64,000 bases of DNA from contig RSEE01000017.1 in the NCBI GenBank assembly GCA_003971905.1, forward strand, positions 620,001-684,000, given 5' to 3'. This document shows positions 8,149-64,000 of the stretch, piece after piece (positions within the stretch are counted from its first letter, which is position 1; each line of letters begins with the position of its first letter). Position numbers and translations under genes: made by a program. The stretch comes from Moniliella sp. 'wahieum' (Eukaryota). Under the pieces are notes generated by a model, which had not been told where the DNA came from, did no database searches, and saw only the letters and a program-made list of their open reading frames with translations.

Positions 8149-8184
<36 letters not shown>

Positions 8185-9920: not shown

Positions 9921-10839
9921 TGTCACGACCCGGAAAAAGGCCCTGGCAATTCCGCGGCCAGGGTGCGTTGCGGCCCTCTCTAAGATCTAAGGCTCGAGAC
10001 GTGGATGGCGACGGAGTGCCGGGCGGGCTCCAGCCTCGGCCAGCCAGTCACGGAGAGGCCTGAATTCGGTCTCGCCTTCAGTCCATAGCTACGCAACACA
10101 CGCCAGCGTGTCATAGGCACTGTACTCGAGGGGAGAGACTCACACCTATCACATGTCACATGTCACTGTGATATATGGCTGTCACTCGTCACAGTGACCC
10201 TTCACCGTTGACCACGGCCGCCCTTTCATTCATGTGAGCCACAATGAGGCTACCGAGTGGCTACTGGGTGGCTAAAACCTACTAGGTACGGAGTGCGTAT
10301 CGCCTGGAACATGTCTGACATGGTTTACTCCGTACCATCAAAACCTCGCGTTCATCCGGGCGTCAACGTGCACGTTCAACGTACGTTCAACGTACTCAAC
10401 CCCTCTCAGATCTCACATCTCTCAGATCTCACATCTCACATCTCATCAATCTCATCCAAGACGGCTATTTTTTCATTAGTCTTCAAGCTTCAAGGTTCAA
10501 GCTTGAACTTCAGGCTTCAGGCCTCAGGCCTCAGGCATCTTCATTAATCATTCGCACGCTGTGATCCTATGACCCTTACAAGGGTCCATTCCGATCGGAC
10601 CTCTGGACGAAAAAAAGTGTATGGCCGCGATGGGCGGGAAGTAAGCGGCCGGGGGACAACTACGAAGTGAGCTGCCTGGGAATCCAATACACGCGCAGCA
10701 CAGTGTCATAACCGACACGATCCCTTTTCGTCTTCTCAGGCTGCTGCCTTCCTCCTCTACCGCCATCATCAGAAGTCCAACCAATGCCTCCACGGTACCA
10801 GCTATTAGGGGGGACGGTGCCTCCTCCACGGTACCTATT

Positions 10840-12299
10840 ATGCTGTTCGCCCACGAACGGGGCTCCAGGCGCTCCTCCCGTCCTCTGCGCCTGATTGTTC
10901 TCGCCCTCTCGGCAATTTGTGTAATCAGCCTGGTATCCTGGCTCGGATTCACCAACACTGGCACTAAGCAAACGCAGCAATGGTCGAGGCAGCCAAGAGT
11001 GCAGGTGGCCAAGCCACCGCCTGGGCTGGTCAGCAGTTCCAGCGTCCTCCAGCACCGGATGATGGCGTCCTTCTGTCTCTCACCCTCCTACTGCCACGGT
11101 ACAGGTTCAAGGCGGTGAGGTGAGCCCAGGCGACTGGCTCTACTCTGTCTCAGCTAGCCAGCCGCCTGCCACAATCCACGAACTCACCCAATGGGCCGAA
11201 AAGGGCAGTGATGGCAACCTCTTCCCCCCCGCCTTTATTCCTGCAGCAGCCAACAAAGCCGTCCGCGCCAAGGCCGGCTTTATTGTTCTGGTTCGTAACA
11301 AGGAGCTGAGTGACATGATGAGCTCCATGCGAGATGTGGAGGAAAAGTTCAATCGCAAGTTTGGATATCCTTGGATTTTCCTCAATGACGAGGACTTTAC
11401 CGGTCAGGTTATCTTCGATTTTGTTTTCACAAGAGGCGGACTGCCCTCCCTCAGAGATTGACTCAACTCACACGTTGCATGCAGACGAATTCAAGAAGGG
11501 TGTCCGTTCCATGACCCGCTCGGAGATCCGCTTTGGCAAAGTTGGTCCCGAACACTGGGGCTATCCTGCGTGGATCAACCAGACCAAAGCGGCTGAGACG
11601 CGGGACAGATGAAAGACATTATCTATGGCTCCTCGGAGTCGTATCGACACATGTGTCGCTTCCAGTCTGGTTTCTTTTTCAACACCCCCTTACCCTTGAT
11701 CTCGACTACTACTGGCGGGTCGAGCCAGGCATCCACCTCTACTGCGACATTGACTTTGACCCGTTCTTGTTCATGCAGATGAACAACAAAACGTATGGGT
11801 TCACAATAGCTCTGCATGAGTTTCCCGAGACGATCGCCACGTTGTGGGATGAGACGAAGAAGTTTTTGAAAAGTATCCCCAGTATCTGGCTAAAGACAAT
11901 GGACTGCACTTTATGACCGACGAGCCGGAGCGACTGCTTGAGCCGGGATACAACCTGTGCCACTTTTGGTCCAATTTTGAGATTGCTGATCTTCGATTCT
12001 GGCGAAGCGAAGCCTATCAAAGGTATTTTGATCATCTGGACCAAGCTGGTGGTTTCTTCTACGAGCGGTGGGGAGATGCCCCTGTTCATTCCATTGCCGC
12101 CATCTTATTCTTGGACCGCAGCCGCATTTATCAGTTTGATCAAATCGGGTACTTTCATGACCTACACGCATTGCCCGGCTAATCCCAAGTACCACCATCT
12201 GGCCAATGCGCATGTGACGCCAACGAGTCGTTTGATGAAGATGGCTACTCGTGCCTCAAGGAGTGGTGGCGTACTTCCGTCGAAGGAAAACCCCAATAA
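10840..12299 (+). CDS. KRE2: Alpha-1,2-mannosyltransferase, glycosyltransferase family 15 (KRE2/MNT1/KTR); intron 11403-11484; several frameshifts
   Basis: N-terminal TM segment. Motifs [61 protein letters not shown] and [18 protein letters not shown]. Ends [15 protein letters not shown]. Confidence 0.93.
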
Positions 12300-13866
12300 C
12301 TATTGTGTATCCTATGGTCACTATTCCATGTCTGTGCCACTCACCGATATCGTATTGTACACCATCATGACCCACCCGGCCATGTACCATCCTTCCACTG
12401 TGGTTCGAATGGATGCAACTCATTCGTTTCGCTATAGTAGCATTTCTCTTTGACTTGCTAGTCTCTCACCTCATGATATTCTTGGCTGTGTTCCTCAGTC
12501 TACCCGCATCTCCCCCCCTCCTCACCTTTCAATAATCCTCTGCGTTCCTACCCGTGGCCTCCCTACCTCTCCACACCTACACGTGCTCGAATGAGAGGGG
12601 CGCCCCATACGTTGCGCACTTAATTACCAAAACCCATAAAGCTGTTTGCACCAATCCCACTATACCGTTGGCCCAGTATATGGCGTCAGCAATATATTAC
12701 GCGATCCACAAAAGGACGGAAGGGCAACCGTGGAGGTCACTACCTCCAGCTCCAATACTTTTGCCCAAGAATCCCCCTCTCTTCCCGGAATGTAACGGTG
12801 TCAGAATCACACCGTGGTCCCCACACACCCTATATATAGGATCTTCTCGCCCCTGAGTTTTGATCAAGGGTCCAATCAAGAACGTTGTTGAAGAGTCGAG
12901 TGGGATCGTGGTCGAGCTGGTAAGTAAGTAGCAAGAGCTGTGGAACGGTATCGCGTACCCGTGCTGTGGTCCGACGGATGTGTGTCTACGCGCGTCTACG
13001 TCTCATGGCATGGCGCTTAGATCTTAGAAGGGTTAGATTGTCCCAGGAACTGAAGCAGCTGAATTGGAGGAGACCTGAGGCCTGAGCCCTGACGCTCGAA
13101 GCTCAAGCTTGAGATATAGATCCTTTCTTTAACTTTGGATTTGGGGCTTTTGATGATGTAGAACATTTTGGATTGAGTTTGTTGGTTTAGGTTTATGTTT
13201 AGAGGGCTGGAGAATAGGAAGGGGGGTAGGATCGATCGATAGTGGGACTAGGACTAGGAATAGGAGTAGGAGTAGGTGACGGGATGGGTGTCGGGATAGT
13301 GGCTTGATGGTTTGATAGTTATCGGTTATCGATCTTATCCACCATCGCCGTTCAACGGCAACAGAGAGATCAGGTGGTGGGAGAGAAGCATGGGACATGG
13401 GACATCAGGTGAGAGACACGGACGGGAAGGAGGAGTACTACGTGTAAATCCCTCCCTCCTTCCGTTACAGTTGGAATGGGTGAAAGAGAGCGAAGGTACG
13501 AGCATATGAGCGGCAGATGCGAGAAAGACGAAGGACTGGGGCATGTGACGTAGGTGTGAGGTGGCGGGGGAAGAGAGGCAATGACGAGGCCAGAATGGAG
13601 TTAGAGGGAACGTATGCAAGTGGAAGGGCAAGGGGAGGGGAGGGAAAGAGCAAAAGGAAGGCAAGGGCAAGGGCAAAGACAAGGGAGGGGAGTGGTTGTG
13701 GGTAGCACGGTGAGGACAAGGTGGTGGTGGTGGATAAGACAGAGGAGGGGCTGGGGACGCGGCCAGCTCAACAGAGCGAAATTCTTCTTGGAAGTTCGCT
13801 TTGAGATCTGACAACTCAGGAACTCCAATGTCAGGAACTCCGATCTCAGGACCTCAAGGCTGGGTC

Positions 13867-19215: not shown

Positions 19216-20034
19216 GTGGTGGGGCGGAGGAAGAGGAGAAAAAAAAGACGCGGGTGGGGGGGTGGGGCGGACGAGGCAGGGTTGGTTAGCAAGAGGGGAG
19301 CGGCGGAGGCTGAGTGCTGGGCTGGCGGTGCTGAGTGCGGTGGGGGTGGGTTGCGGGAGGCCAAGTGACTACGCCTGGTGACGGAGACGATGAGACGGGG
19401 AAAAGCCAGAGCGGAGGGCTAGGCAAGGCCCACGGAGGGCGGCTGCCGCGGCGTATATCGGATGGGCTGGCTGGCTGGGCGTCTGACTAGTGACTGATTA
19501 ATCAGGCGTGGGGTGCGGCGGGGGTGCGGGGGGACGCGGCCTTATTAATCGTGCTCGGGGCGTCTTACGTACGGAGTCTGACTGGCCAGGCGCTAGGTAC
19601 GCGCACAGGGCCCATGGGTCCAGGGCACGGCGCCAGCCAGCCCGCCGTCGGCACCAGCCAGCACGCCGCTCGAAGCCAAGTCTGGGGGTCACCGGTCACG
19701 TGCCACATGTCACTGGTCGCATCCCCTGTCCTGCCGTTTTAACGTTTAACGTTTAGTCCGCACAGGCTGCCCGATGATGTCATCCATCACGATGTGTGGG
19801 GGGAGCAAGTTTGTCCGTCCGCAGGCCTGAGACTGCGTACTCGTACCTCAGATTCAATATTCATCCCCCCGGCTGCGGGCCAGTATGCAGTGCCCCCGTG
19901 CGCTGCGCTTGGTTAATGATTGCAAATAGTACTCACCAGCTGATCACGCGCTGCAGCAGCGGAACCGCAGCGTCCGTTCCGCCTGCGCCTCGCCCTGTCC
20001 ATACCCAGTACGCGAATAATCTCTGGGGCGTTTA

Positions 20035-22917: not shown

Positions 22918-22938
22918 GCGACCGCTGCGTCGTTGTTA

Positions 22939-22984: not shown

Positions 22985-24416
22985 TGTCCGTCTGTCCGCT
23001 CCAGGTGGCCTATACCCGCGGACAGACGATCGGATCGGGATGCCATCCATAATTCTATCCTTATCCATACGGTGCGCGTACACGGGAAGCAATGTGCAGC
23101 AAGCTGGTTTAAGTACTGTACTACGTGCCCAAGTGGCGATGTAGGGAGTGGATTAGGCAGGGGAGATGGCTGGTGAGGCGGTGGGGAGGGGCGAAAGAGA
23201 GAAGATGTAGGATGGAAGGAATGCAGGAGTAGAGAGTTTCGCCATGATACATGAGACGGAGGGAGGATCTAAGAGAGGCGGAGCAGGCGGGAAAACAGGG
23301 GGGGGGATGCGATGTGACATGTGAATGTGATAGTACTGGTGTGTGATGATGGTCTGGGTCAGGTGCGTGTGCTGCATGCGAGGGGGCACAGACGCGATGC
23401 GGGCAGTGGGACAGAAACTTGAATGCGGGCAAACGGCGCGCGGCGAGGCAGTGACTAGTGACTAGTGACTAGCTGTGCAATGTGCTACCCCAACGGGGGC
23501 GTTATTGCTCCGTGTTGCTCCGCATGGTCTGCCGCCTGGCTGGTGGCCTGTGCGAATCGCCACCGCCGCGGCCATTAGATCGTTGGACGTTGGACGGTTG
23601 CTGCCATGCTGTTTGGGCCTTCCTAGGGTACCCGGTTACTACTCCCCTGGCAGGTGCGAGCGTGTGCTAGCTCTTGAGCCTCAAGTGGAAGCGTTAGTAG
23701 CTTCAAGCTTCACGACGCGTCACGCGCACGACTTTTCCGGGTGGCTCGCATGCTCGCGCCTCGCTCCTGTTACTTGCCATGTGCCAGGATGGTCATCATG
23801 CATCATGCCCTGTGTCTAAATCATGCATCCTGTGCATGTGCCTGCGCCCACACACTGCCCTGTGCGTTGTCCGGGCTGGCGGGTGCTGGTCTACGCTTCC
23901 ACACGGACCGCATGGATGGCGGCAAATGACCATGGCGGCTCGGAGGGAGATAAACGATAGTCGATAGTCGAGAATCGATCGGCCTCCATCGACCATCGAC
24001 CATCCCGATAGCAGCCAGGCGAGTCGTCCCGCGCGGCTCACCCGAACTCAGCGGTGAGACTCACCTTCCCCACCGTTTCAGCCATGTGGACAGACCGCGC
24101 CCTGCCCACGCGCCCACGTAGCTTGCCAGTCCCTCGTCCAACCGAACAGGCAAACACGCGGTTTTCTTTAGCTAGTGCCCCTTGTCTCTGCCACCGAACC
24201 TGGTCCATCATCGCATCATCGATCATCGACGTCTATCATCGATCATCACATCTCACATCTCCCACCACCCCACCCAGTCCTCTCGTTACGCTCCTAGCCG
24301 CTCTTCGTTGGCTTTGTCTCTCTCTAATAGCTCACCCTCCAGCCTCCATTCGTTCCCTACCACCACCACCACCACCACTACTACTACACCACTACCACCA
24401 CCCTACCTCGCCCACT

Positions 24417-25525
24417 ATGAGCGCTGCCCTGGACAAGCTCACCTCCAAGCTGCCCGTGCCCAAGAGCCATGTGGTGCACGCGCTCAAGCAGCCCGACGAG
24501 CTCTATGCGCCCGCCGTACAACTTTCTCCCCCAGGGAGGGAAGCGACAGCGTGGTCACCACCAACAGTCCCTGCCGCTGCCGCATGCTCAAGAACTCTAC
24601 GGGCGACCGTGTCGCGTTCGAGGTACGTTTGCCACTTGATAACTGCTTCCCCATGGGGTTGGTGTTGGTGTTGTGCTTTTCTTTTTTCCCCTTTTTCTTT
24701 GCTTTTGCTTTGGTGTGTGCTACGGACGGAGGGATGCTGACCGTTGCGCTTCTGTGGGCTGTTGCGATGTGGTGTGGTTTGTGGTTTGTGGTTTGGGCAC
24801 CTTGTCGATCCTTGGGAGCAGCTGGAACTGCGGCGCGAGTGCGCACATATCGTGATGGACAATGACATGCAAGTGATCATCAACCCTGCGCACGTGAACG
24901 AGCGTACGGGTGTGCCTGCCGAGACGTTTACCGCTGACACGCGGTACAAGTACGTGCCGGAGCAGATGTTGGCCAAGGTGACTGTACCCGTTGTGGTGGA
25001 CCTGGCCAACGCGGAGGCACCAGATGTTGTGTGCTCGTCCGTGATGGTGAGCGTGACGATGCGACGGGAAGATGGGGTGGGTCAAAGGACGTGTCACGGT
25101 TCGTGTGGTACTTTGGTGAGGCGGCGAGCCAAGGTCCGCGTTTATCGCATGTACCTTTGTACCTGCAACAACAACGTCGTGACGATCGGAAGAACCTTCG
25201 TGGCCGCGGGTTGCCACCGGACTACGCATCGACGATTGGCAGTCGATCCGACGGGCCTAAGGGGCTAGGACAAAAAATGCTCAAGGTAACTAAAAAGGTC
25301 TTTTCGGCCCCGCCGGGTGCTGGTATCCCGATCCACTACGCCCCTGAAGCGTTCGAGAACGAAGCTCAGGCCAAGCAACTGTCGCAGTACTTGTCCACTT
25401 CTCCTGCTCCATCCGCTCGACCCGTCTCCCTCTCCGACTCGTATGCTCCGCCAGAGAGCGAGTACGGGCACATGCGCACCGATACCAAACTCAGCGAGCT
25501 GACTGCCGAGGCGGAATACCTGTGA
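24417..25525 (+). CDS. Hypothetical protein; intron about 24623-24821; frameshifts
   Basis: ATG after a C-rich leader (MSAALDKLTSKLPVPK). GTACGT donor and CAG acceptor join RVAFE|LELRRECAHIVMDND. Coding-like composition to EAEYL*. No family recognised. Confidence 0.6.
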
Positions 25526-46422: not shown

Positions 46423-48526
46423 CCTTGGGGAGTGGTGGGAGGGGCGTGGAGGAGGCGAGGGAGGCGGAAGCGGGCGGTGGTGGTCGGGAAGAGAAGGGCG
46501 GGTGCGGCTGGCCTAAGGCACCACATGTGTGCAAAGCAAAAGTCACATGTCACAGCACGCCACACCTCCGCCCCTCATCGGCTGCTCGTCAACATTCTGC
46601 GAGCTCAGATGGGCGATGTTCGATGCGGCTCAGCGTGCTCAGCGCCCGGCAGGCTCAGCATCGCCCCGACGTCATGGCAAACGGCGGGAGAGGTGTGGGG
46701 CTCCGACATTCTTAGTGAGCATCCGGCCCTGCGCTGCGGCTACGGAAGCTAGCCGCTGGTGACTAGTGCCTATAGGGGCGGGTGGCAGGCGCCGTGATGT
46801 GCGGGATGCGGCTTCCAGCCAGCCTCCCGCTTTTCCCGGGCGATCGAGAAGCGAGAGATAAGATGCTGCTCGTTTGCTCGCAGCCCGCCGGCGGGCCAGA
46901 CACTGCCCAGATCCCACACCCGGCCAGACTCTCGGACGCAGGCACGGCGGCATGTGCTGTCACATGTCACGTGACATGTGACGCTGCACTGCACTCTCCT
47001 GCCCTCGGACCCTGCGCGTGCGCCGTTTGAACAGTGAACGTTGAACACATTGAACATTGAACGTGGGCGTCATGCCCTGGTCGGTCTGGGGAAAAAAATT
47101 TGCGAGGTGTGCTGTGTGTCCTCCCTCCTGCCACTGGAGTCTGGTGTGCCTCAACCAGATTCCTCACTGTACCCGTCTGTGTCGTCGCCTGCCCAAACGG
47201 GTCGCCACGGACCCGGCCCCTCCCTTTGCTAGGGAAACTCAGCAGGGCCCCCTCTTCCGCCACCACACCCTCAGTGTCTCCAGTACCTGAAAACTTGTTG
47301 CGAGCGGCTGGCTTGTTGCCCAGCATGAGCAGTGCTGGTACGATCCGTGCTGGTATGGCCCGCGCGTGATGGTATGACCAGTGCTGGCATGACCGTCATG
47401 CATCTTTAGGTGGGGCGCAACAGGCACAGCAGGACACAGCACGCGGTTCGCTACCTTGCGTATCGTTCGCCTTGCTCTCCCATATATTACTTGTCCCCCT
47501 CGTATTATTGCCGTGGCGTCTAGCCCAGCTGGTCCTAGTAGCCCCTGGTATTCAAATAGCTCCTGAGCGCTGAGTGCTGGCGTTTGGGCCGTGGGTTTGA
47601 GAGTGGGGCCAGAAGTTTACACTTCAATTGAAGATTGAAGGTATTTCTCCTACAATATAATGCAGTTATTTTGATGCATTTTGACGACTCGAGACAAAGT
47701 TGACCATGTATGGTCCAAGTGTGGAACTTCAAGCTTCAAGCTTCGGGCGTCTAAGAACTCGCTCTAAATCCAAGTGCGCCACACATACAGGAGAGGAGTA
47801 CATCAGGCCCCAGGGGCATTTTCTGTTGTGCAGTGTGATATCACAGATGAATCCGTGCGGAGAGGTATCTACCCGTCCAGAACGTTTCCAGCTTCAAGCT
47901 TTAGTCTGGCTACAGAGCAATCTGCACCGACACCAGCCTAGCGCTTACATGTCCCATGCGTGCCTGACAACGTACCCACACAATGAGCGTTGTTGGTCTC
48001 TGTAGGTACACGTCTCTCGCGTCGCGGCAGCAAATATTTTTTCAGAAAAATGACGGAGGCGCAACGTCCAAGCTTCAAGCTTCAAAAGTGGGTGCAGGTG
48101 CGAATATTGAATGGAACGTCATTTCCAGAATGCAGAGTGCAACAGGACAGGACGCACAGAGGGAGGAAACAATCACGATCAATCATGAGCAGGAAGCAGG
48201 GCAGAGTAAGGTCCAAAAAGAGAGACAGGAAGAGGAAGAGCAAAAGGGAAAGGGAAAGGGAAAAAGGAAAACAATGCAAAACGCAAAACGCAAAACAGAA
48301 ACGGTGGTGGATGGTGGGGAGCTAGACGCTCCATGCCTCTGGAAACCCAGACCATGAAGAAAACGATACACGGTGCGGAATGAAGGGGGAGAGGAGGATA
48401 GGGGAAAGATAGAAAGATGGAAGGGGGAGAGGAAGGGCGACAGAGCGTTTTCAACCGCGACACGTTTCGTGCAAGAGAGAAGAGAAAAAACAAAACAGAG
48501 AGTAGGCGGCATTCCCGGTCCTGGCT

Positions 48527-49167: not shown

Positions 49168-52100
49168 GCGAGTGAAAAGAGTGGTGGGGAGAGAGCAAAG
49201 GAGCGGGGTGGGCAAGCAAGTGGATGTGGTGGTAGGGTGGAGGGTAAGGGGAGAAAGAAGCGGGGGTGGGGCGGCAGGGCGGCAGGGCTTATATACAAGC
49301 AGCAGCAGTGCTGGGCGGATGGGCTGGGATGTGCATGATGAGAGGGTGTGGATGGGAGGCAGGGGGCGCAGAGGGCGCGAGCACAGAGCGAGTCGCTCCA
49401 TGGGACCAGGCGGGTGGGAGGGGTGGGTGGGTGATGTGCGGTGGGTGGGCAGGCAGGGGGGCAGAGGGTGGCGCAGGCCGGGTGGGTTTAGCGTTGGAGC
49501 GCTGCGGGGGCTGGCTGGGGGGCGCGAATTGCCTGGGCTCGTGCGGGTGCGCGGAATGCCAGGGCCACCCCTCCGTCGCCCCGCACAGACGGGCAGTGCA
49601 CCGCGCATCACCCATGCCTGCCGGTGAACATTGAAATTACTTGCTTGGCGGGTGCATAGCATAGCGGTGCTGCCCTGGCGCAGGGCGCGAGCGACGCGTC
49701 GGTGCAGCTGCCGGCTGGTGCTGCTCCAAGCACCTCAGCTGTGCCTGCTGCAGCCACGACTGTCTCGTACAGTGTGCGCCACCACACACCCGTCCTGCTG
49801 CCCCAGGCTCTGCACCGCTGCTGCCCCCCTGCAAGCTACAGTGGCGAACTGCGCGCCTGCGTGGCGGCCACCCGCGGGCAGGAGCACTGCAGCACTGTTA
49901 GTACTGCGTATTGGCTCGCCATGTCGGAGCTCTGCGTGGGGGCCCGCATGCTCCAGCAGGCGCTCCTGCGCTCGGGCGCAGCGCTCAGGCTGAGCCTCAG
50001 CAGCCGGCCAGCGCTGCCCGCCCACACAAACGCAGCCCACCAGGCACCTGCTCTGTCTTTCGCTCGCATCCAGCACCAGGCGCAGCTGGCCAGAGTCATC
50101 GATCATCGCTGACCACCAATCGTGTCGATCCGTGTGGAGCAGGCAGTGGGCCAGTGGACGCGGGCCCTTAGCCTCAGGGCCTCACCTAAAACTGCTTGCG
50201 GGCCGATTTAACGTTTGACGCTTAAACGTTTTTTAACAGGCAGCTCCACCCACCTTCCACGTTCCTCCATCCCCCCGTCTCCGCCGCCCATTGGACGTTG
50301 GCTTGCCTCTTGGCGATCTTTCGCGCACACAGCACCAGTGTGGTCTCCACCTCGCTCTGGGCTTTGGTGTTGCTCGGACCTGCCACACGCTCGCACCGCT
50401 CTTTCCCTCCACCGCTGCTGTAGTGCCTGTAGTTGCCACACATGCGATGGAGGAAAGGAATGGCATCATCGTTATAATCGGCTCATCCATCCATCGCTCA
50501 TCGATCATCCTCATCCGGCGTGTGCTCGTGACAGCCCAATAGGAAACCAGTCGAGTCGCCCGTAGCTTAAGACCCTCTGTGGCGCCCGCTATTCGCTTCC
50601 AAATCGACTCGCATGGATACGAATGAACTAGAGCGCTCAAACTATATCTTGTCGGGGGTCTTTTATTTTGGTGGCATAGCATGCGTCCGTCGTTATATGA
50701 CCAAAGGGAAAAGCATGGCTCGTGAGTGCCTCTACTGTGGTACTTGGCAATGTTTGCCGCATGTCGCTTGCTTCGTGGCAGCTTCTTCTTCCACCGTTCC
50801 ACAGGTGTGCGTGTACCTCTTGTACCACCTGCCGATGCACAAACCATCATGACGGCTTCCTTTGTGCCCGAATCTCTTCTCTCAAAAGGTGTGGTCCACT
50901 CCATCCCCCATCCTCTGAATGCTCTTGGTCCCATCACTCGGTGTAATCAATACGCCCGGCCGTCTTCTTCTCACTCCGCTGGTCCTCTTCTTTCACGGTC
51001 GGCTCGTTGTGAGAGTGCGGGTGCCCCGGATGGAGCCCACGAGCTTGATCGCGGCTCCCGTAAAAGCTCTCATGCACCTCGCTAAAACTTGGACTAGGTG
51101 CGTGTTCAAACCAAGAGGAGCTCAGACGAAGCCATCAGATCATACAGTTGCTACCTCCTTATTCATCCCGTTTTTGGACATGGGTAGACTGCTTGACTTG
51201 GCTGTTGCCAGGGCGAAGCGGGACGGTCTCTCCTGAAAACCCGGCTTCATCAGGGAGAGAGCTGTTGGGGCGGCATACGCTATACACGGATCCCAGAGCC
51301 GATTCCACAGGCCAAGAGAGTTCATAGCCATCATGGTTGCCGACCTTGGCAAGACCCACAGCATTGGATTAGGATCGAAAGGGGATACTGGTTAGGTCGC
51401 GAGCAGCATCGCAAGTTCCCTTTTGTCCCCGGGAAGAGCCCAAGGGCCTGATGGAGTGTCTTTTTCTCGTGTAGGGCGAATGGATTCAATCTCCCAGTAG
51501 ATCTGGCTGGGCAAGGTGCAGTAGATATTTAATCCCTACTTCATATGCACAGCGGCTCCTATCAATATCAAGGCCTGATGGATTGCATTAGTGGCTGAGT
51601 ACCCTTGGTCAGTTACGGTCAGTATAGTTGGTGCTGAAGAGAAAGGTGGTTCTGTGCTTCTCATTCGAGTCTCGTCTCTGTTCTGACCCATGATGATCGA
51701 TGATCGAAGAGATGATCTGCCTGAATTATGCATTCGCTCCGCTTTCAGATCTCATCGATTATCCCCGGGGGCGCTCTCTCTGTCACGTGGTACTGTTGGC
51801 TGCATTATAAAGACCCTGCCCTTTGCATAGCTTCCTGTGTCCTCGGAGCCACCGCCGCTCTGATTGAGTTCACCGTTCTCGTGAACATTCTTCAAGTTAA
51901 CCACATTCAACAACGTACTCTCAGATCTCAACATTCAATACCGTTCACGTTGACCTCTTTCAATCGCCTTTTCCCGGTGTGCGCGGCATCTGCGTCCCAT
52001 ACCATCTCAGCGTGGTGCTAGTGACGCTGTGTGTGACAATGGGGTGCGGCGGCGGCGACATGGATGAAAAGGCGTACTATATATTGTTTTACGTAGACGC

Positions 52101-52490
52101 GCGATCTGATCGGTCGTGGCAGGAGCAGGTAGGAGAGGGTATTGGCGTTGGCCCAGCGCGCGGCGCGGCGAGGCAGGGCGAGGCACAGTGGAGCATAGAG
52201 GCGCAGGGACAGTGTGTGCGGCGCAAGCGGCTGGTGGGTTGCCATGTGCCCGCGGACACTGCCCGTCCACGCATAGGAACCTGGGCTGCCTCGCGCCGCA
52301 CCCGCACCCGCAACCGAGCCCAACCTATCGCTCGCACCCGGCCAGTGTTGCTGGCTGCTGGATTCAATATTCATACTCACTAGCTACTCACTAGCTTTCA
52401 CTGGGTCCCTTGCGCGTGCTCGGGGCAACGCTGCTGCTGCCTCCTTTCTCGTCTCGTCCCCGTCTCTCCCCCCCACCACCACAGTCGACC

Positions 52491-55362
52491 ATGGCCATTG
52501 GCGAAACCATTCGCCGCCGCACCCTCTCCCGCCCCGCCGCCGTCACGAGCGAGAAGGATGGGCCGGCGCCGTTGGCCTTCCCTACGCCCAAGCTGGACGA
52601 CCGTGGCTCCACGCCCTCTCTTGCCGCGGGAACCGAGACTGGTAGTGGCCCTACCGGCCGCTTCCGTGCACGCTTGCAGCGTTTCAACTCGATGGTTTCC
52701 CATCCGTCTCACTTGCGCACCGGAAGCCTTGCCACCGCTCTCTCGCTACGCCCGACGCGCCCATGCAAAAGTCCGCCAGCGCAGAGACCGAAGCAACCAA
52801 GACAGAGCCCTCGCCCATCTCGGCCCCTGGCGTGCCCAACCGCAGCTCTTCCCTGCGCCATGGTACTGACGGCGTTCCTGCGCTCAAGCCGGTGGGTTCG
52901 AACCCATCCAAAACGGGACCGAACCAAGCTAGTCACCCACCGCCAGTCTCCCGCACCCGTCGCATCTCCCTGGCTGTAGGTGCAGCCATGCGTTCCGCTA
53001 CGATTCACCGTCCCGCCACCAATAAGGGTGGGAACACTGTGCCGTCCAAAGAGAGCGATAAAGAGAATGCAGACGTGACCAAGGAACGCAAACTTGTAGC
53101 CAAGAAACCTGCGCCCCCCCGTTCCCGGTTGCCTCAGAGCACGAGCAGGCGTCAGCGATTCCCTCGAATGCGATCGCCCCAGACCAAGGCCCGCTCGCTT
53201 TCCCCTCGGTCGAAGAGGCGAAGAGCGAACCAGCTCAAAAGCTCCAGCCGGTTCCTCGCCCGGTCAAAGAGGACGCCCCCAAGGAAGTTAAGGAGGTGCC
53301 TTCGGCGGAGGTCAAGGAGGTGGCCCCTGACCAGACTAACGAGGTGACCCCTGAGGCGGCCAAAGGGGAGGCTGGTGAGGATGCCAAAGAGGCGTCAAAG
53401 GCTGAGACCACCGCTTTAGTGGATGAGCCTACGGAGATGGAGTCCACTCAAGTCCAATCGGCGGTGGCGAAGGAATCGGATGTACCTGCGGCTGCAGTGA
53501 CCGAGGATGCCGCCGACGTAAGCAAGGAAGCTGAGGCTGAGAGCGTGGCCAACTCGGCGAACGGATTGGTTGGTGCTGCAGGCCGCTCCAAGCGGCAAAG
53601 CATGGTATCTGTCACACGTGCTCCACGCCACAGCTTGCTGGGCCCCAAGCCCGCTGATGTGGATTCTGCGGCAACCAGTACATCGGCTCTGCCCAGTGTC
53701 GCCATTGCAGCCCACGATGATGTGGGGGTGAGTTCACTGCCGCCCCTGCTGCCGGCGCGGTGGCCTCGGCGACAGCTGTAGTGGCCCGGGAGAAACGCCG
53801 TTCTCGCTTGTCGAGTCTGGCTTCCTCGGATGTGTTGTACGCCACCCCCAAGTCCTCCATTTCCTCCCCTATTCTCTCGTTGCCGGACCAACCTAAAGAA
53901 TCGCCGACGGCTGTGGTGACGGCCAGTGCCGAGACAGCGTTCCCGTTACGGAGGAGCCCGCTACGATCGCCACCAAGGCCCTCCTGAGACCCCTGCTGAG
54001 ACGGCTGAAGCGGTGGGAGAGCCTGCGGCAACGGCTACCGAGGTTGCTGCGCCTGCGGAACCGGTGGCGCAAGGAAAGGCTGTCGATGTCGATCCACCCA
54101 CGCCAGTCTCGCGCCCCGCGAGCACTGTATCCTCCACGCCCAAGGTGGCTGGAAAGCACAAGAAACACCCGTCTCGCTTCTCTTTCTTCCACTGGGGTCG
54201 CACGGCTGAGAAAGAAACGGGCGAGGTGCAGGTGGGAACCAAGACGATTTTGTATGCGCTGCATGGAAGTGCGCAGACAGCCAAGAAACCAGTGCTGCAT
54301 GTGGGTGGCGTCGATGGCTCGGCTGACCTGGATACGCTCCCCGCCCCGCTCCAGGCGGTCTTGGACGCCGAGCACCTCGAGCACCAAGTACTTTTGGTCT
54401 CTGTTTCTTCGGGCGTGCTGGAACCTGCGGACCTGGAGGCCGTACGCACTCACCTCGACTTGCCCGGGTTCAGTCTTCTGAGCGCCTCGGGGCGGGGCGC
54501 GGCCGTGGTGGCGGCATATGCCGCGTCCAACCCGCAGGTAGTGGGAGGACTGGTGGTGTCGGATGTCGACCTGGGTCAGCCGGGACCGAATGAGTTGCAG
54601 GCACTGTCTCTCCTTGCGCCGGACGCATGGAGCGCGCTCAAGGTGGCCCTTGGTCAGCCTGCTACCACGGGCCCCATCACTCTTGCCGATACCAAACCGT
54701 ACTGGACTCGGCTGCCAAAACGTTTGCCACGGCCTCGGATGAGAAGGCGGACGAGGGCTCGGTAGCCTCGCTCGCCAACGCAGTCTCGGCGTGGCACGGC
54801 TTCTTCAGGCCCAGGGACGCACAACCGGCTCAGACAAGGTACTGTCCTCCCTCCTCTCCCTTCCTTCATTAATCATTGTACTGGAAGAACCAACTAACTC
54901 GATGGCCAGGCTCTCGCCTCAGCGACGCGCACCTCCTCCCTCCTAGCTCAAGACAGTGCGGTTGTCTTGCCGGCCAGTGTGCCTATCACAGCAGTGCAAG
55001 CGCGGTACGACATGGTCTGCACCCCGCTTACGCTTGCCTCGTCCTCGGCCAAGGTGGTGCTGGTCCAGTCCCTTCGTGGCTCCAAGGCAGTCAACAAGGC
55101 GTTCACCAGTACCTTGTTGGAGGTTCTGGCTACCCCTGAACCTACTCCTGCTCAGTCTGCCATTTCGGTCGAGGCCGCTGCCGAGCCTTCCGCTCCTTCC
55201 AAGGCTCCAGCTCCTGTCAACTCTTCCGCTCCTACCCGCCGACCTCCTACCGCCGACGCTGCTACTGCGGCTACCCCCGCTGAAGTGACCACTGAGGCGC
55301 ATGTGGCGCAGCCGGCGGAAGCTACAACGACTGAGGCAACTGAACCAGTGGTGGTTTCATAA
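52491..55362 (+). CDS. Large low-complexity protein with C-terminal degenerate alpha/beta-hydrolase-like domain; frameshifts and a probable intron about 54839-54910
   Basis: Continuous coding-like frames from MAIGETIRRRTLSR to EPVVVS*. Segment DLEAVRTHLDLPGFSLLSASGRGAAVVAAYAASNPQVVGGLVVSD follows the hydrolase elbow pattern. Confidence 0.6.
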
Positions 55363-56566
55363 AATCTGTCCTCATCCTGTCTTTAAGTTTCTCGCCTTTT
55401 TTTTTTCGGCACCTTACTTCCTGTTCCTGCCCATCTTCTTATGATGGATGGCAGTTGATCCGTTTTCTGTGCATAATACCCTGTTAATCGTTCGATACCG
55501 TATGGGGGCGTCCATCATGTCCCCTTGCCTCCCCCCCCTACCCCTCCTAACCCCCCTTTTCCACCTTTCCACCTTCCCCCCACCTATCCCCCCCCCGTTC
55601 GCTATACTTTGTCCTGACGACATGCCATCGGCGCCGGCCATTTTTTTCTCTTTTGGGCCGAATGTCCCCCGTTTCCAGCTTTGGTCCGTTCAAGACCATC
55701 GTGCTTTTCAATGTGACGATCTCTCTCTTATTACCGTTATATTTCACCTTGGTGTGCGGGGCCGGTTCTGGATACTCGATACTCCCTCATCCAAGTCACA
55801 GTGTGTTGTGACGTGAAGGAAAGTCCCGCGGGCGGGACGTACTACTATATATCTCCTTGCTGATAACGGGTCAGCCCAGGAAGAGCTAGGCGATTCTTCC
55901 CTTGCTCCTTCCCCGTTCTCTCAGATCTCAGTTCTCAGACCTCATATGTCATCGATGCCATCGTCCATCGCTCATCGAACTCCCATCTCTCGATGAACTT
56001 GCCTAGCAGCTGGACCGACCAGCGGTACTCCATCGAAGTAGCAGCAGGGCAGCTTCATCATCCTGGCTATTTAGGTGCCGTGTCTGATGCTCCTACTGTG
56101 GCCATCGCATAGCAACGGCGCCGATGACGTCACAAGGGGTGGCTCCCAACCAAGGGACCGCCTGGGACGGCGGGTTGAACGTTGAAAGTTGAAACCTGTG
56201 ATGTGAAGCACGTGGAGGCGAGGAAGCGCGGCAAGAGCCAGGCAGAATTGATCGCGTAATCAGACGTCTGTGCACGGGGGCCCGCAGCGGGAGGCACAGC
56301 GGCAGTGTGCGAGGCGTGTCTGAGAAACAGCGTTTCGGGCCAGCGCTGCCCAAAGCGTCGGCGCACCTGCTATGTCCGGTCCGGCCGGCACCGAGGCCGG
56401 ATGGCGAGTATATAACCCACTTGCCCCCCGACCGCCACCCCTTCGGTCCCTGCTGGCAAGTACATGGCTCTGGCGCGTCTGTGCACTCCCCACCTCCTTC
56501 GTTACTCTTCCTCCCACCGCCACACCCCTGCTTCGCCCCCTTCCCATCCGTACCTTTTGCTTCAGC

Positions 56567-61598: not shown

Positions 61599-61636
61599 CC
61601 TGTCCCAGCCTTAAGCTCTGTCAATGAAATGGACGT
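61599..61636. repeat. Second copy of the 38-bp segment at 2685-2722
   Basis: 37/38 identity by eye. Confidence 0.85.
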
Positions 61637-61954: not shown

Positions 61955-61992
61955 GGATGGCATATCATTAACAGGATGGCATATCATTAACA
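61955..61992. repeat. Perfect 19-bp tandem duplication GGATGGCATATCATTAACA x2
   Basis: Directly visible. Confidence 0.9.
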
Positions 61993-64000
61993 TACCAAGG
62001 GAAGTGACAGTGTCACGTGGGGGAGAATGAATGTTCGGCCCTCGAAAATTCACAAAAGAGGGGGTCATCTTACTACATGGTGTAGAACAACAGACCACGG
62101 TGCCACATGGTTACTAGTAGCGAAGATTGTGGAAGAGTCCATGCAGGCACATGGGCACTGAGGTCCACACAAGACACTCTAAATTGGGGCTCGCCTCCTT
62201 GTAGCACAAGTAACATGCAACCGGAGTGTCCTCTTTCAGGACGGTCTTGTGCGAGTAGTTCGGGGGCACCTTTTTCCCTGTACGACCATCACGTCCCTTT
62301 TGCGCCATGCGGCCATGGGTGCACCCATGAGCGACAAGTAGCGCCAAGAATCTTTTTGGGGTGCAGTAGGGTTCTGGACCCCTCAGCCGGGCAGCCGACG
62401 CAGTGGACCATGTGTTAGCACATGATGATGTTACATGCTATGCATGATATGCTTCCTGTTCGGGCCACAGAGACACTCGAGCATCGGTTCGGATCAGGCA
62501 CCCCAGCATGGACCGAGATCCCGATAATCCTTCGGTGTGCTGTTTAACGACCTTTTCCCCAAAAGGTCGCATGTTACAGTTCAGTCAACCGCGCAGAAGG
62601 CACATGGCAAAGTCTGTGTGTGTTTCGCACAAAGGGGCATATCTGTAGGCTGTAACAAGTACAGGTATTACCTCAAGGGGCCAACGCTATACTTGTGTGA
62701 AGTTATCCATTGTGGCCGGGAGAGCTGATGGGTGGCTTGTGCGCCCAGTGAGCGCAGTTGTGGCGTTCGCACTCTGCCCGATTTAGGTGTGCACATGGTT
62801 TTCTGGTGTGGCACCTGTCAGCTTTAAGTTCTGAAGCCGGGGCTTGGAGAGGAGCCGAAGAGCCGAGGAGCCGTTCGCCTCTCCGCGTGGTTGTATGGCC
62901 TACGACCCGCTGCGGTGATCAGGAGAATTGGGACGGGGCAACTGTGACATAGTGAGCATTACGATGAGGATTAAGCTTTGAGCTTTAAGGTTAAAGTGCC
63001 AGCAGGATAAGATTGATCATCGACCATCGATATGATAGTCCAAACCTATACACAGAAGAGGCCTGCGACAAAATAGATGATTTACTTGAGATATTGTATG
63101 GGGTCTACTTACAGTCTTGAGGGGCGTTCCTTTGGTCTAGTCCGTCCTCCGATGGTGCATGGTGGGAGACGGTGGTACCTGAGCCTGGCGGTGGCTATTA
63201 TCTCTCCCAAGATAATGTCAACTAACCTTTGTGTCAAGCTTCAAGCTTCAAGCATATGCCAAAAGTCTCCATGTGGTCAAGACGCCGATCGAATCGGAGC
63301 CTATACGTCAAAAGGCTTGGCTTTTGGAACGTGAAACGTGATGCGTGTAATCGATGATCGATGGATGGTGACCGGTGACCGGTGATGAGCGATGCATGAT
63401 CGATGTTCGGGCAGAGACAACAGAGACGCAGCCATAGCACAGCTAGCACAGCACTGCGTGCGCTCTCTTTTCAATTCGAGCTTCTCCAGACGAGGTGTCG
63501 TGCACCTCGTTGTCTCGCCTCGAGAATGGCCGAGGTGGACTGGTCTCCCTTGCCAGCAGGGGGATGGAAGTAGTTACTAGTAACAAGTAACTAGCGACCT
63601 CTATATAGTGAAGCAAGAAGCTGTAGTAATAGAAGTAACTATTACTACCTGGGAAGCCTGCATCCAGCAACATCGTAAGAGCAAGCGTCGTGTTGGGGAC
63701 CCCAGCTGTCAGCGCCAGAGGGGTGTGCTGCCCACGCAAGATGGCCTGGGATGGCCTCGGGTACTCGCTATGGCTGTGACATGCTTTACGCGACAAGCTG
63801 TCGTTCTGCCGCATGCGAGCAGGACGTGGGGATAGAGTGCGTGATATGTGGCGTATCACATGCGTCACATGATTTGGGAGATCTGAGACCGCGGGCGCGA
63901 CGCATGTGACGTGATTAATGATTAACGTTTAACGTACTTGACGATTAGCTCGACTATCGATTATCGATTTACGCGCGAGGGCATCGCGGCAAGGCAGTTG

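What the first reader, a model, noticed from the sequence alone, without database searches (positions are those of the whole stretch)
10149..63935. Window-wide intergenic arrays with 7-nt period: TNA-[4-bp palindrome]-TNA, a possible record of stacked transposon excision footprints
Seen: short arrays in which a TNA triplet recurs every 7 nt, separated by a palindromic 4-mer that differs between loci. Examples: TCA-CATG-TCA-CATG-TCA (10149-10165), TGA-GGCC-TGA (13076), TTA-ACGT-TTA-ACGT-TTA (19739-19755), TGA-CTAG x3 (23452-23472), TCA-TCGA-TCA (24216), TCA-AGCT-TCA-AGCT-TCA (28061-28077, 63234-63250), TTA-GATC-TTA-GATC-TTA (28400-28416), TAA-GGCC-TTA-GGCC-TTA-GGCC-TAA (37648-37671), TGA-GTAC-TGA-GTAC-TAA (44149-44165), GCGC-TTA-GCGC-TTA-AGCT (44464), TGA-ACGT x3 (44910-44930), TGA-CCGG-TGA-CCGG-TGA (63369-63385). 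Ten of the 16 possible palindromic 4-mers occur, and every instance I found is non-coding. Ordinary slippage does not explain a shared TNA frame with a palindromic insert. Established: cut-and-paste transposons duplicate their target (PIF/Harbinger use 3-bp TWA/TNA), and Tc1/mariner excision can leave terminal bases of both inverted ends between the duplicated targets. Inference: 2 nt from each inverted end gives a 4-bp palindrome, so each 4-mer could mark a different TNA-targeting family, and repeated insertion and excision at one site would build the arrays. Alternatives are a bZIP-like regulatory lexicon or a templated repair process.
Basis: partly seen in the sequence, partly recalled or inferred. 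Interest (0 to 1): 0.85.

Follow-up and report, generated by a model that had tools for sequence, protein, structure and literature searches.

The report
Seven-base palindromic scars at T-N-A sites
The non-coding DNA of this smut-related fungus is peppered with one very regular 7-base insertion at T-any-A sites, part direct and part mirror-image copy of the neighbouring bases, which most likely marks where a cut-and-paste jumping gene left, although no such gene lies in this stretch.

Summary
TNA-N4-TNA has a palindromic N4 82 times, against 8.6 in shuffles (max 14) and 3-8% in the other 15 frames. The scan noted this pattern before in five other pieces of the same genome.

The palindrome is not transposon-end sequence. 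In 53 of 68 arrays, half of it mirrors the two bases next to the array, on the left in 21, the right in 24 and both in 8. The elementary event is TNApq -> TNApq-q'p'-TNApq, a net +7, found 75 times against 0.17 expected.

The T and A lie symmetrically around N. The product expected from an asymmetric 5-bp target is absent.

Best reading (0.5): excision scars of a transposon that duplicates 7 bp (xyTNApq) and leaves hairpinned flanks, each opened 2 nt off the tip, with one 4-nt self-complementary overhang kept. A hAT lineage with 7-bp duplications exists in rust fungi (PMC12730594).

Against it, no transposase, inverted-repeat element or occupied site lies in the window. No genome is held and no reads were listed.

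About 490 kb of other DNA, mostly fungal-like, carries the event roughly 10-fold less often. I rate it a new variant of a known kind.

The parts
9981..10550 (.). Cluster of 8 TNA-palindrome arrays upstream of a glycosyltransferase-15 gene. It includes 10149-10166 (TCA-CATG x2) and the 8-unit chain 10481-10536 (TCA-AGCT drifting to TCA-GGCC).
   Evidence: 8.4% of 9900-11062 is covered by 5+2 12-mers
10372..10395 (.). Period-11 product gt-TCA-ACGT-ACGT-TCA-ac. Both 4-nt overhangs appear to be kept (+11) at an already palindromic 7-mer.
   Evidence: the only TNA-pal4-pal4-TNA case, with both flanks and N matching. TRF period 11.
13017..13112 (.). Three arrays (TTA-GATC, TGA-GGCC, TCA-AGCT/TGA) in the spacer between the 3' ends of the glycosyltransferase gene and a kinase gene.
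19484..19863 (.). Five arrays in the divergent spacer between the PRPP-synthetase (-) and Exo5-like (+) genes, including TTA-ACGT x2 at 19739-19755.
23315..24245 (.). Six TNA arrays (TGA-CTAG x3 at 23450-23472) plus several non-TNA 5+2 events (TGG-ACGT, TAG-TCGA, CCA-TCGA).
   Evidence: 15.6% of 23300-24300 is covered
25523..26238 (.). Four arrays (TGA-TGCA, TTA-TCGA, TGA-TCGA, TCA-TCGA).
28061..28079 (.). TCA-AGCT x2 array with its right flank mirrored.
28397..28425 (.). tc-TTA-GATC-TTA-GATC-TTA-CCGG-TGA-cc. Both flank dinucleotides of one ancestral 7-mer were mirrored, GATC from tc and CCGG from cc.
37090..37673 (.). Four arrays, including TAA-GGCC-TTA-GGCC-TTA-GGCC-TAA at 37648-37671.
43861..44933 (.). 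Seven arrays (TGA-GTAC x2 at 44149, TTA-GCGC at 44468, TGA-ACGT x3 at 44908-44933).
46543..48084 (.). Eight arrays upstream of a Stealth-domain gene. They include the perfect 24-bp palindrome at 46959-46982 and the inverted pair 46542-46558 / 46954-46970, whose only mismatches are at N.
50096..52373 (.). Six arrays, including the mixed array TCA-GATC-TCA-TCGA-TTA at 51745-51761.
54866..56185 (.). Three single arrays (TCA-TTAA, TCA-GATC, TGA-ACGT).
63234..63935 (.). Six arrays (TCA-AGCT x2, TAA/TGA-TCGA, TGA-CCGG x2, TTA-CTAG, and the chained TGA-TTAA then TTA-ACGT).
44586..44601 (.). 7-bp direct duplication plus 2 inverted nt (+9), centred on TNA. It is one of 7 such loci; the others start at 3118, 15623, 20642, 28307, 54370 and 63436.
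   Evidence: 7 loci against 0.2 in shuffles, but only about 3 times the rate in control DNA

Best explanation
The arrays are repair scars left by repeated insertion and excision of a cut-and-paste DNA transposon. It would belong to the kind that leaves covalently closed hairpins on the flanking DNA, as hAT, MULE and Transib elements and RAG do.

Proposed steps (all inferred from the products):
1. The element inserts with a 7-bp target duplication xy-TNA-pq. The dyad is at N, and T and A are strongly preferred at positions 3 and 5.
2. On excision both flanks end in hairpins.
3. Each hairpin is nicked 2 nt to the 3' side of its tip. The two duplex ends then stop exactly at TNA, and each carries a self-complementary 4-nt 3' overhang: pq-q'p' on the left and y'x'-xy on the right.
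4. End joining keeps one overhang and discards the other. The result is xy-TNA-[pqq'p' or y'x'xy]-TNA-pq, a net +7.
5. Once a site has become the palindromic 7-mer q'p'TNApq, both overhangs are identical and anneal perfectly. Further cycles, or slippage, then add exact 7-nt units and build arrays.
6. Frameshifting +7 products are purged from coding DNA, so scars pile up between genes.

Shown here: the products, their symmetry, their excess and their rarity in other DNA. Not shown: the element itself.
For: 1. The elementary event is a 12-mer, W5 + rc(last 2 of W5) + W5. It gives 124 hits against 6.9 in shuffles. 75 start with TNA, against 0.17 expected.
2. Flank mirror rule. In 53 of 68 arrays the outer 2 nt equal half of the palindrome: 21 left only, 24 right only, 8 both, 15 neither. 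Among the 56 single arrays the split is 20/19/4/13. This is the signature of P nucleotides at a hairpin-opened end.
3. Symmetry about N. T.A sits at offset 0 of the copied 5-mer in 75 hits, against 3 and 6 at offsets 1 and 2. The product expected from a 5-bp target with the other flank's P nucleotides kept appears 6 times, and all 6 are re-framings of ordinary TGA-TCGA or TCA-TGCA arrays.
4. T and A are both properties of the target. The third base is A in 86 of 99 (4+3) hits, and the base before is T in 75 of those 86.
5. One site used both flanks: 28397-28425.
6. By-products the model predicts. There is one clean +11 product with both overhangs kept, at 10372-10395. There are 7 loci of 7-bp duplication + 2 inverted nt, against 0.2 in shuffles.
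7. Only a 4-nt palindrome is seen. TNA + 2-bp palindrome gives 9 against 6.25 expected, and TNA + 6-bp palindrome gives 0. The nick offset is therefore fixed.
8. Rarity elsewhere. 64 non-redundant metagenome loci (489,586 bp) carry 13.1 5+2 loci per 100 kb against 129.7 here. In all 80 loci (669,742 bp) the TNA frame is palindromic in 6.7% of cases, against 35% here.
9. A long-running process. There are 75 perfect and 115 one-mismatch 12-mers, against 0.5 and 9.5 in shuffles.
10. Literature (passages read). hAT, Transib, MULE and RAG make flank hairpins (PMC5499845). Ac/Ds scars in Candida and yeast carry P nucleotides, and the Artemis-related Pso2 is implicated in hairpin processing in yeast (PMC5873905). 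'hAT7' families with 7-bp duplications occur in Pucciniales, and Kyakuja elements with 7-bp duplications in Laccaria (PMC12730594).
Against: - No transposase was found among 214 ORFs of 110 aa or more, nor among 107 shorter ORFs from 1-10 kb and 59.9-62.6 kb.
- No inverted-repeat element with a 5-, 7-, 8- or 9-bp duplication was found, apart from one weak 5-bp hit.
- The window holds almost no dispersed repeats.
- No occupied site or empty/filled allele pair was seen.
- Known hairpin-type scars are heterogeneous: 28 kinds among 128 Ac/Ds excisions in Candida (PMC5873905, passages). This class is very uniform. Part of that uniformity comes from my search, which only sees regular products.
- The model needs exactly one overhang to be kept nearly every time. 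The both-lost product (TNATNA) is not enriched (80 against 61). The both-kept product was seen once.
- Plain 7-bp tandem duplications without a palindrome (22 arrays) fit a smooth fall from period 6 to period 8. They are no more enriched over control DNA than period 8.
- The 7+2 class is only about 3 times the control rate: 7 loci against about 2.2-2.5 expected.
- The usual hAT target is 8 bp, nTnnnnAn (recalled). No target consensus for hAT7 is given in the text I read. That paper's main text has no word beginning 'Ustilag'.
- Multi-unit arrays need repeated hits at one site, or slippage.
Confidence: 0.5

Rival explanations
1. A host-encoded process without a mobile element. This could be a domesticated hairpin-forming transposase, another dimeric nuclease acting at T-N-A in accessible DNA, or a lineage-specific end-joining signature that writes the +7 scar directly.
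For: - No element, transposase or dispersed repeat family lies in 64 kb.
- Event density is very high: 3-16% of several intergenic spacers is covered by 5+2 12-mers.
- The product is extremely uniform.
- The same sites are hit repeatedly.
- The process has run for a long time.
- Control DNA shows a weak excess of the same flank rule, 30 of 130 arrays against about 16 expected. That could mean a general repair product that is hyperactive here.
- Domesticated hAT transposases that make hairpin-capped breaks exist. Kat1 is an example (PMC4763223; search listing and start of abstract only).
Against: - A nuclease or hairpin alone does not duplicate TNA. The direct duplication of 5 to 7 nt is what staggered strand transfer (integration) gives, and I could not derive the product from nicking and fill-in alone.
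- A low-copy cut-and-paste element would rarely fall inside a 64-kb window. On my rough estimate, about 3e-5 scar-leaving excisions per genome per generation would be enough.
Confidence: 0.2
2. Excision scars of a transposon with a 5-bp target duplication TNApq (Transib-like or hAT5-like), with 2 P nucleotides always coming from the flank end that is distal to TNA. Earlier notes of this scan described the event as a 5-bp duplication plus 2 inverted nucleotides.
For: It is the most literal description of the 12-mer. Transib and RAG make 5-bp duplications and hairpinned flanks (PMC5499845 passages for the hairpins; the 5 bp is recalled).
Against: - It needs an asymmetric target and strictly one-sided processing. 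The mirror product with P nucleotides from the TNA end is absent: 6 ambiguous hits against 75.
- It cannot give 7-bp duplication + 2 nt products (7 loci) or the +11 product.
- The 21:24 left/right balance and the T/A symmetry about N follow naturally from a dyad at N.
Confidence: 0.12
3. The arrays are kept, or were built, because they work as palindromic binding sites for dimeric transcription factors in intergenic DNA.
For: - The events lie between genes and cluster there.
- Some products contain E-box-like or CACGTG-like cores, for example 46959-46982.
Against: - 14 of 16 palindromes are used, and which one appears is dictated by the neighbouring two bases. That points to a mutational origin, not a lexicon.
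- Arrays also lie in a spacer between two 3' ends, 13017-13112.
- Many copies are decaying: 115 one-mismatch against 75 perfect.
- Later co-option of some scars is not excluded.
Confidence: 0.06
4. Many TNA-targeting families (PIF/Harbinger-like, 3-bp duplication) each leave 2 nt of both ends, so each 4-mer marks a family.
For: TNA is the usual PIF/Harbinger target (recalled). TNA is duplicated on both sides of the 4-mer.
Against: - The flank mirror rule.
- One site carries two different 4-mers, each derived from its own flank.
- No inverted-repeat element with a TNA duplication and matching ends was found.
- It would need 14 or more families in a window with almost no repeats.
Confidence: 0.02
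5. Ordinary microsatellite slippage, perhaps favoured by hairpin-forming units, or an assembly artefact.
For: The window is rich in short tandem repeats of all periods. Slippage probably does extend arrays that are already long.
Against: - The commonest form is a 12-mer: one unit plus 5 nt, with a 2-nt inverted junction. Slippage has nothing to act on there.
- Slippage explains neither the T-N-A restriction nor the mirror rule.
- The pattern avoids Pfam-aligned coding sequence and follows rules that no sequencing error is known to me to produce. Read-level confirmation was not possible.
Confidence: 0.03

Closest known systems
Excision footprints of hAT elements (Ac/Ds, Tam3, Hermes) in plants, budding yeast and Candida albicans
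   Same: The target duplication is retained around the empty site. Short palindromic (P-nucleotide) insertions copied in inverted order from the flank show that a flank hairpin was opened off-centre. Repair is by end joining (PMC5873905 and PMC5499845, passages read).
   Different: - Known scars are heterogeneous: 28 kinds in 128 events in Candida. This scar is one dominant product.
- The duplication implied here is 7 bp with T-N-A at its centre, not 8 bp nTnnnnAn (recalled).
- The nick offset is fixed at 2 nt, and exactly one overhang is kept.
- The density is far higher, at several arrays per kb of intergenic DNA.
- No element was seen.
hAT7 families of Pucciniales, and Kyakuja elements of Laccaria (Kojima 2025, PMC12730594)
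   Same: They are basidiomycete DNA transposons that make 7-bp target duplications. hAT7 groups with the fungal and plant Ac/Tam3-like hAT elements, the class known to leave hairpinned flanks.
   Different: They are described from rust fungi and Agaricomycotina. The paper's main text has no word beginning 'Ustilag'. No target consensus is given in the passages I read, and the figures with the duplications are not held. No scars are described. Whether this fungus has such an element is unknown.
V(D)J coding joints, and Transib excision
   Same: Hairpinned coding or flank ends are opened about 2 nt from the tip, giving 2-nt P additions (the offset is recalled). A 4-nt self-complementary 3' overhang is the intermediate.
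   Different: The RAG and Transib duplication is 5 bp (recalled). Coding joints are highly diverse, with nibbling and N additions. Here the joint is uniform, and its symmetry points to 7 bp.
Canonical Tc1/mariner (Sleeping Beauty) footprint TA-C(A/T)G-TA
   Same: It is a stereotyped odd-length quasi-palindromic scar with a free central base, built between duplicated target bases (recalled).
   Different: There the inner bases are transposon-end bases, identical at every site. Here the inner bases are copied from the local flank and differ from site to site.

Membership tests
Hairpin-type (hAT-like) transposon excision footprint | A direct duplication of target bases remains on both sides of the scar | tested here: met
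   TNApq is repeated at a 7-nt distance in 75 hits, against 0.17 expected. 7-nt copies occur at 7 loci.
Hairpin-type (hAT-like) transposon excision footprint | Junction bases are an inverted copy of the adjacent flank (P nucleotides) | tested here: met
   53 of 68 arrays obey the mirror rule, against about 12% by chance and 30 of 130 in control DNA.
Hairpin-type (hAT-like) transposon excision footprint | A corresponding element (transposase, inverted ends, occupied sites) exists in the genome | tested here: not met
   None was found in the 64-kb window. Genome-wide this cannot be tested: no genome is held and no runs were listed.
Hairpin-type (hAT-like) transposon excision footprint | A spectrum of products with variable deletions and P lengths | tested here: inconclusive
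   One product dominates. Minor +9 and +11 products exist. Irregular products cannot be recognised from the sequence alone.
Canonical hAT (8-bp nTnnnnAn target) | 8-bp target duplication with T at position 2 and A at position 7 | tested here: not met
   The symmetry centre is a base (N), so the duplication has odd length. The products fit 7 bp with T at position 3 and A at position 5. The 8-bp consensus is recalled.
hAT7 (7-bp duplication hAT lineage, PMC12730594) | 7-bp target duplication | tested here: inconclusive
   7 bp is inferred from symmetry, from the 7+2 products (7 loci, only about 3 times the control rate) and from one +11 product. No element was seen.
   The 4-mer mirrors the flank. 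Two different 4-mers came from the two flanks of one site.
Microsatellite made by replication slippage | Arises by gain or loss of whole units in an existing tandem array | tested here: not met
   56 of 68 arrays are single links. 26 of the 124 12-mer hits have no further periodic extension on either side.
Array of transcription-factor sites (bZIP/bHLH lexicon) | A limited set of motifs fixed by the factor, independent of the neighbouring bases | tested here: not met
   14 of 16 palindromes are used, and their identity is set by the flank dinucleotide.

The most novel reading that the evidence does not exclude
The scars are written by a host-owned enzyme system rather than a free-living transposon. 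One candidate is a domesticated hairpin-forming transposase working with the cell's hairpin-opening nuclease. It would repeatedly cut at T-N-A in accessible intergenic DNA and turn the local flank into palindromic 7-mers. That would make it an endogenous, sequence-directed mutator that keeps producing dyad-symmetric motifs, and so raw material for dimeric transcription-factor sites, in one fungal lineage.
Probability: 0.2. Interest if true: 0.85.

Novelty: new variant of a known kind. Interest (0 to 1): 0.6.

Why it matters
If the reading holds, this genome keeps an unusually clean and dense fossil record of DNA-transposon excision. There are dozens of scars in this 64 kb, all following one arithmetic rule. 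From that rule one can read off the length and symmetry of the target duplication and the position at which this fungus opens DNA hairpins, without ever seeing the element.

It would also show that a low-copy cut-and-paste element, invisible to repeat annotation, can rewrite 3-16% of several intergenic spacers and fill them with palindromes that dimeric DNA-binding proteins could use.

If no element exists, the same pattern would point to an undescribed endogenous mutational process. Either way the claim can be tested directly with a whole assembly, a few strains, or mutation-accumulation lines.

Tried and rejected
- Whole genome: none is held.
- Sequencing runs: none was listed for 43800-48200. 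Strain polymorphism and read support could not be examined, and read laying was not used.
- Codon-usage and GC3 gene maps: bias is too weak to call exons. Gene context therefore rests on Pfam hits only.
- Transposase search: Pfam found none in 214 ORFs of 110 aa or more, and none in 107 ORFs of 60 aa or more from 1-10 kb and 59.9-62.6 kb.
- Element search: self-BLAST found one about 230-bp repeat. The scan for inverted ends plus a duplication found nothing usable.
- ORF 5423-6007: no homologue was found, so it stays open whether the event-free first 10 kb is coding.
- Products of a nick 1 nt from the tip (6+1): 5 hits, against 26 for the three control bases. Not enriched.
- Plain 7-bp duplications centred on TNA: no enrichment over other rotations, nor over control DNA relative to period 8. 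I dropped them as support for the 7-bp model.
- TNA + 2-bp or 6-bp palindromes: not enriched.
- The pair 46543/46960 as ends of a small element: the mismatches fall exactly at N and the extra 4-nt match is weak (my estimate, p about 0.08). I read it as two independent scars.
- Models I worked through on paper and rejected because they do not give the product: 3-bp TNA duplication with snap-back synthesis; fold-back and ligation of a 5' TNA overhang; 9-bp and symmetric 5-bp (yTNAp) duplications; template switching during replication; fill-in at Top2- or Spo11-type overhangs.
- Literature: six searches returned no listed paper that describes such arrays. This covers only the held library. The supplements of PMC12730594 were not opened, and its Figure 1, which shows the hAT7 duplications, is not held.

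Full report
**What the window is.** It is 64 kb of eukaryotic DNA with 57% G+C. No whole genome is held. An ORF for PRPP synthetase finds its best named relatives in Ustilaginomycotina (Tilletiaria, Kalmanozyma, Pseudozyma, Violaceomyces and others) at up to 85% identity, with no near-identical relative. The organism is therefore a smut-related basidiomycete without a close sequenced neighbour in that collection. Pfam places these genes:
- a glycosyltransferase-15 gene (+, about 11063-12450);
- a kinase (-, about 13338-14413);
- PRPP synthetase (-, 17684-19368);
- an Exo5-like gene (+, from 20222);
- a kinase (+, 31630);
- a Gpr1/Fun34 gene (+, 36176);
- a Stealth-domain gene (-, 45732-46301);
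- a GST (+, 57212);
- a PHAF1-like gene (+, 57893-59510).

All 13 quoted loci carry the quoted strings.
- In the frame TNA-N4-TNA the 4-mer is palindromic 82 times out of 233 (35%). Sixty dinucleotide-preserving shuffles give 8.6 on average and never more than 14. The other 15 frames XNY-N4-XNY give 3-8%.
- Of 62 perfect period-7 repeats of at least 14 nt, 23 have a unit of TNA plus a 4-bp palindrome, where random units would give about 2.7% by my arithmetic.
- The 82 links form 68 arrays: 56 single, 10 double, 2 triple. They use 14 of the 16 palindromic 4-mers (TCGA 12, GATC 11, AGCT 11, ACGT 9, and so on; TATA and CGCG are absent).
- This scan had already noted the same pattern in five other pieces of this genome. 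I used those notes as leads and repeated the tests here.

**The anatomy: the palindrome is copied from the flank.** For each array I asked whether the 2 nt outside it continue the 7-nt period.
- Chance is 1 in 16 per side. Of the 68 arrays, 21 do so on the left only, 24 on the right only, 8 on both sides and 15 on neither. Among the 56 single arrays the split is 20, 19, 4 and 13. In control DNA only 30 of 130 arrays show any match.
- The smallest unit is therefore a 12-mer, TNApq-q'p'-TNApq. Removing 7 nt leaves xyTNApq, a site that is not palindromic. The event is a 7-nt insertion made of a 5-nt direct copy and a 2-nt inverted copy.
- Written generally as W5 + rc(last 2 of W5) + W5, it occurs 124 times (both strands) against 6.9 in shuffles. 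75 of these start with TNA, against 0.17 expected.
- The other 49 hits start with other triplets. They are also above chance, although some are re-framings of TNA arrays. TNA is a roughly 25-fold preference, not an absolute rule.
- Both T and A are properties of the target. In the looser pattern N-c-pq-q'p'-c'-N-c-pq the base c is A in 86 of 99 hits, and the preceding base is T in 75 of those 86.
- Only a 4-nt palindrome is produced. TNA + 2-nt palindrome gives 9 against 6.25 expected, and TNA + 6-nt palindrome gives 0.

**Symmetry decides between two readings of the 12-mer.**
- Read literally, it is a 5-bp target duplication TNApq plus 2 P nucleotides from one flank. A target with TNA at one end is asymmetric. 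If both flanks are treated alike, the mirror product abTNA-TN'-abTNA should be about as common.
- It is not. There are 6 hits, all of them re-framings of ordinary TGA-TCGA or TCA-TGCA arrays, against 75. T.A sits at offset 0 of the copied 5-mer in 75 hits and at offsets 1 and 2 in 3 and 6.
- The left and right mirror types are equally common, 21 against 24.
- Everything is symmetric about N. That calls for a duplication of odd length centred on N.
- I checked 3, 5 (yTNAp), 7 and 9 bp on paper. Only 7 bp (xyTNApq) gives the product. With hairpins on both flanks, each nicked 2 nt on the 3' side of the tip, the duplex ends stop at ...xyTNA and TNApq.... They carry the 4-nt self-complementary 3' overhangs pqq'p' and y'x'xy. 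Keeping one overhang and removing the other gives TNA-pqq'p'-TNA (right type) or TNA-y'x'xy-TNA (left type), a net +7.
- At 28397-28425 one ancestral site tc-TTA-cc shows both outcomes side by side: GATC twice from tc and CCGG once from cc.
- Once a site is the palindrome q'p'TNApq, the two overhangs are identical and anneal perfectly. That would make further exact +7 steps easy and may explain the arrays. Slippage may add to them.

**Side predictions of the 7-bp model, with mixed results.**
- A product keeping both overhangs (+11) exists once, cleanly, at 10372-10395: gt-TCA-ACGT-ACGT-TCA-ac, which TRF reports as period 11.
- Products with a full 7-nt copy plus 2 inverted nt (+9) occur at 7 loci, against 0.2 in shuffles. 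The neighbouring lengths 6 and 8 give 6 against 1.8 and 1 against 0.3. Measured against real control DNA, however, the 7+2 class is only about 3-fold enriched, 7 against 2.2-2.5 expected. Only one of the seven loci is centred on TNA.
- Plain 7-bp duplications without a palindrome (22 arrays) fit a smooth decline from period 6 (78 arrays) to period 8 (10 arrays). They are no more enriched over control DNA than period 8, so I do not count them as support.
- Products of a nick 1 nt from the tip are not enriched.
- The both-overhangs-lost product, TNATNA, is not enriched.
- The model therefore has to assume that exactly one overhang is kept almost every time. This is its weakest point.

**Where the events lie.**
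- They cluster in about twelve patches.
- One patch is the divergent spacer between the PRPP-synthetase and Exo5-like genes. Others lie upstream of the glycosyltransferase and Stealth genes. One lies in a spacer between two 3' ends (13017-13112). So the events are intergenic in general, not only in promoters.
- In these spacers 3-16% of all bases lie in 5+2 12-mers.
- No TNA-type event lies in the 2,784 bp aligned to Pfam domains. That fits purging of frameshifts.
- Three of the seven +9 events lie inside long ORFs or ORFs with a Pfam hit that are probably coding (15623, 20642, 54370). These insertions preserve the reading frame.
- The first 8 kb holds 447 TNA sites and no event. No Pfam domain and no homologue of its longest ORF was found there. 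Most of its tandem repeats have periods of 3, 9 or 33, and it has more long ORFs than I expect by chance (my estimate). It may be coding for orphan proteins, but this stays open.

**Age and preferences.**
- There are 75 perfect and 115 one-mismatch 12-mers, against 0.5 and 9.5 in shuffles. A ratio near 1 is what a long, steady process with neutral decay gives. It does not look like a single recent burst.
- N is C or G in 56 of 66 arrays, against a background of 74%.
- The mirrored dinucleotide is AG, GA or AC about twice as often as expected. Self-complementary dinucleotides (CG, TA, GC, AT) are rare, 4 against 15.3 expected. I have no explanation for this.

**Rarity in other DNA.**
- Around relatives of the PRPP-synthetase gene I fetched 80 metagenome loci, 669,742 bp in all. 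Their taxonomy was not determined; identity to the query is 47-77%.
- In them the TNA frame is palindromic in 210 of 3,112 cases (6.7%). There are 14 TNA-type 5+2 hits, several from redundant contigs, against 75 in the window.
- After removing redundancy (64 loci, 489,586 bp), 5+2 loci number 13.1 per 100 kb against 129.7 here, and period-7 arrays 9.4 against 89.1.
- Three G+C-rich contigs with the highest identity among the longer contigs (L054-L056, 69-77%) are possibly Ustilaginomycotina by my inference. They have no TNA-type event.

**Is there an element?** Not in this window.
- No transposase domain was found.
- No inverted-repeat element with a 5-, 7-, 8- or 9-bp duplication was found.
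- The 3-bp scan gave only noise.
- The window holds almost no dispersed repeats.
- This does not exclude a low-copy cut-and-paste element. On my rough estimate, a visible density of this order needs only about 3e-5 scar-leaving excisions per genome per generation over the time taken for about 10% neutral divergence. A handful of copies would rarely fall in 64 kb. The estimate is an inference, not a result.

**What is known (passages read unless stated otherwise).**
- hAT, Transib, MULE and RAG all leave hairpins on the flanking DNA (PMC5499845).
- Ac/Ds scars in Candida, yeast and plants carry P nucleotides centred on the base next to the element. They are heterogeneous, with 28 kinds among 128 excisions. 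The Artemis-related Pso2 is implicated in hairpin processing in yeast (PMC5873905).
- A hAT lineage making 7-bp duplications, 'hAT7', is described from Pucciniales, and Kyakuja elements with 7-bp duplications from Laccaria (PMC12730594). No target consensus is given in the text I read, and Ustilaginomycotina are not mentioned in its main text.
- From a search listing only, other 7-bp duplications belong to the P-like Galileo and its relatives.
- Six literature searches returned no listed paper that describes arrays like these.

**Verdict.**
- The pattern is real, rule-based and rare in the other DNA tested.
The proposed mechanism (3-bp duplication, transposon-end bases, one family per 4-mer) is contradicted by the flank rule.
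- I favour scars of a flank-hairpin transposon with a 7-bp duplication centred on TNA (0.5).

Noticed in passing
window 4108-4337 and 60382-60804 (also 2685-2728 and 61599-61642): A dispersed repeat of about 230 bp at 89-90% identity. It carries tRNA-like A-box and B-box motifs and an internal CTT microsatellite that is greatly expanded in the second copy. It may be a SINE-like element (motif resemblance is by eye). It is the only dispersed repeat in the window.
   Followed up: partly
window 1-9980: Ten kb with lower G+C (48-56%), no Pfam domain, no homologue for its longest ORF and not one +7 event despite 447 TNA sites in the first 8 kb. Most of its tandem repeats have periods of 3, 9 or 33, so it may encode orphan proteins.
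   Followed up: partly
window 2158-2253 (-) and 40926-41014 (-): Two tRNA genes that are over-long (96 and 89 nt), probably because they carry an intron. ARAGORN could not assign one of them; the other is called tRNA-His.
   Followed up: no
window 8138-8184: A run of 47 G (95% pure) in the event-free region.
   Followed up: no
window 46959-46982: A perfect 24-bp palindrome made of two abutting scars in opposite orientation, with a CACGTG core at its centre. It resembles an E-box-type binding site (recalled), so it is a candidate for a scar co-opted as a regulatory site.
   Followed up: partly
window-wide: Self-complementary flank dinucleotides (CG, TA, GC, AT) are strongly under-used as the mirrored pair, 4 against 15.3 expected, and AA is never used. 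None of the models explains this.
   Followed up: partly
window-wide, e.g. 10497, 13103, 19495, 20581, 25523, 37090: About ten links have the complementary N (TNA-pal4-TN'A), about 2 being expected (my hand count and estimate). They form perfect 10-bp palindromes without any flank mirror. They may be a different product, such as a longer P tract, or unrelated palindromic sites.
   Followed up: partly
control loci L012/L013, L026, L029, L035, L039, L061-L063, L065: The same TNA-type 12-mer turns up now and then in unrelated metagenome contigs. Control arrays also obey the flank rule more often than chance, 30 of 130 against about 16 expected. The event may occur at a low rate in other fungi too.
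   Followed up: partly
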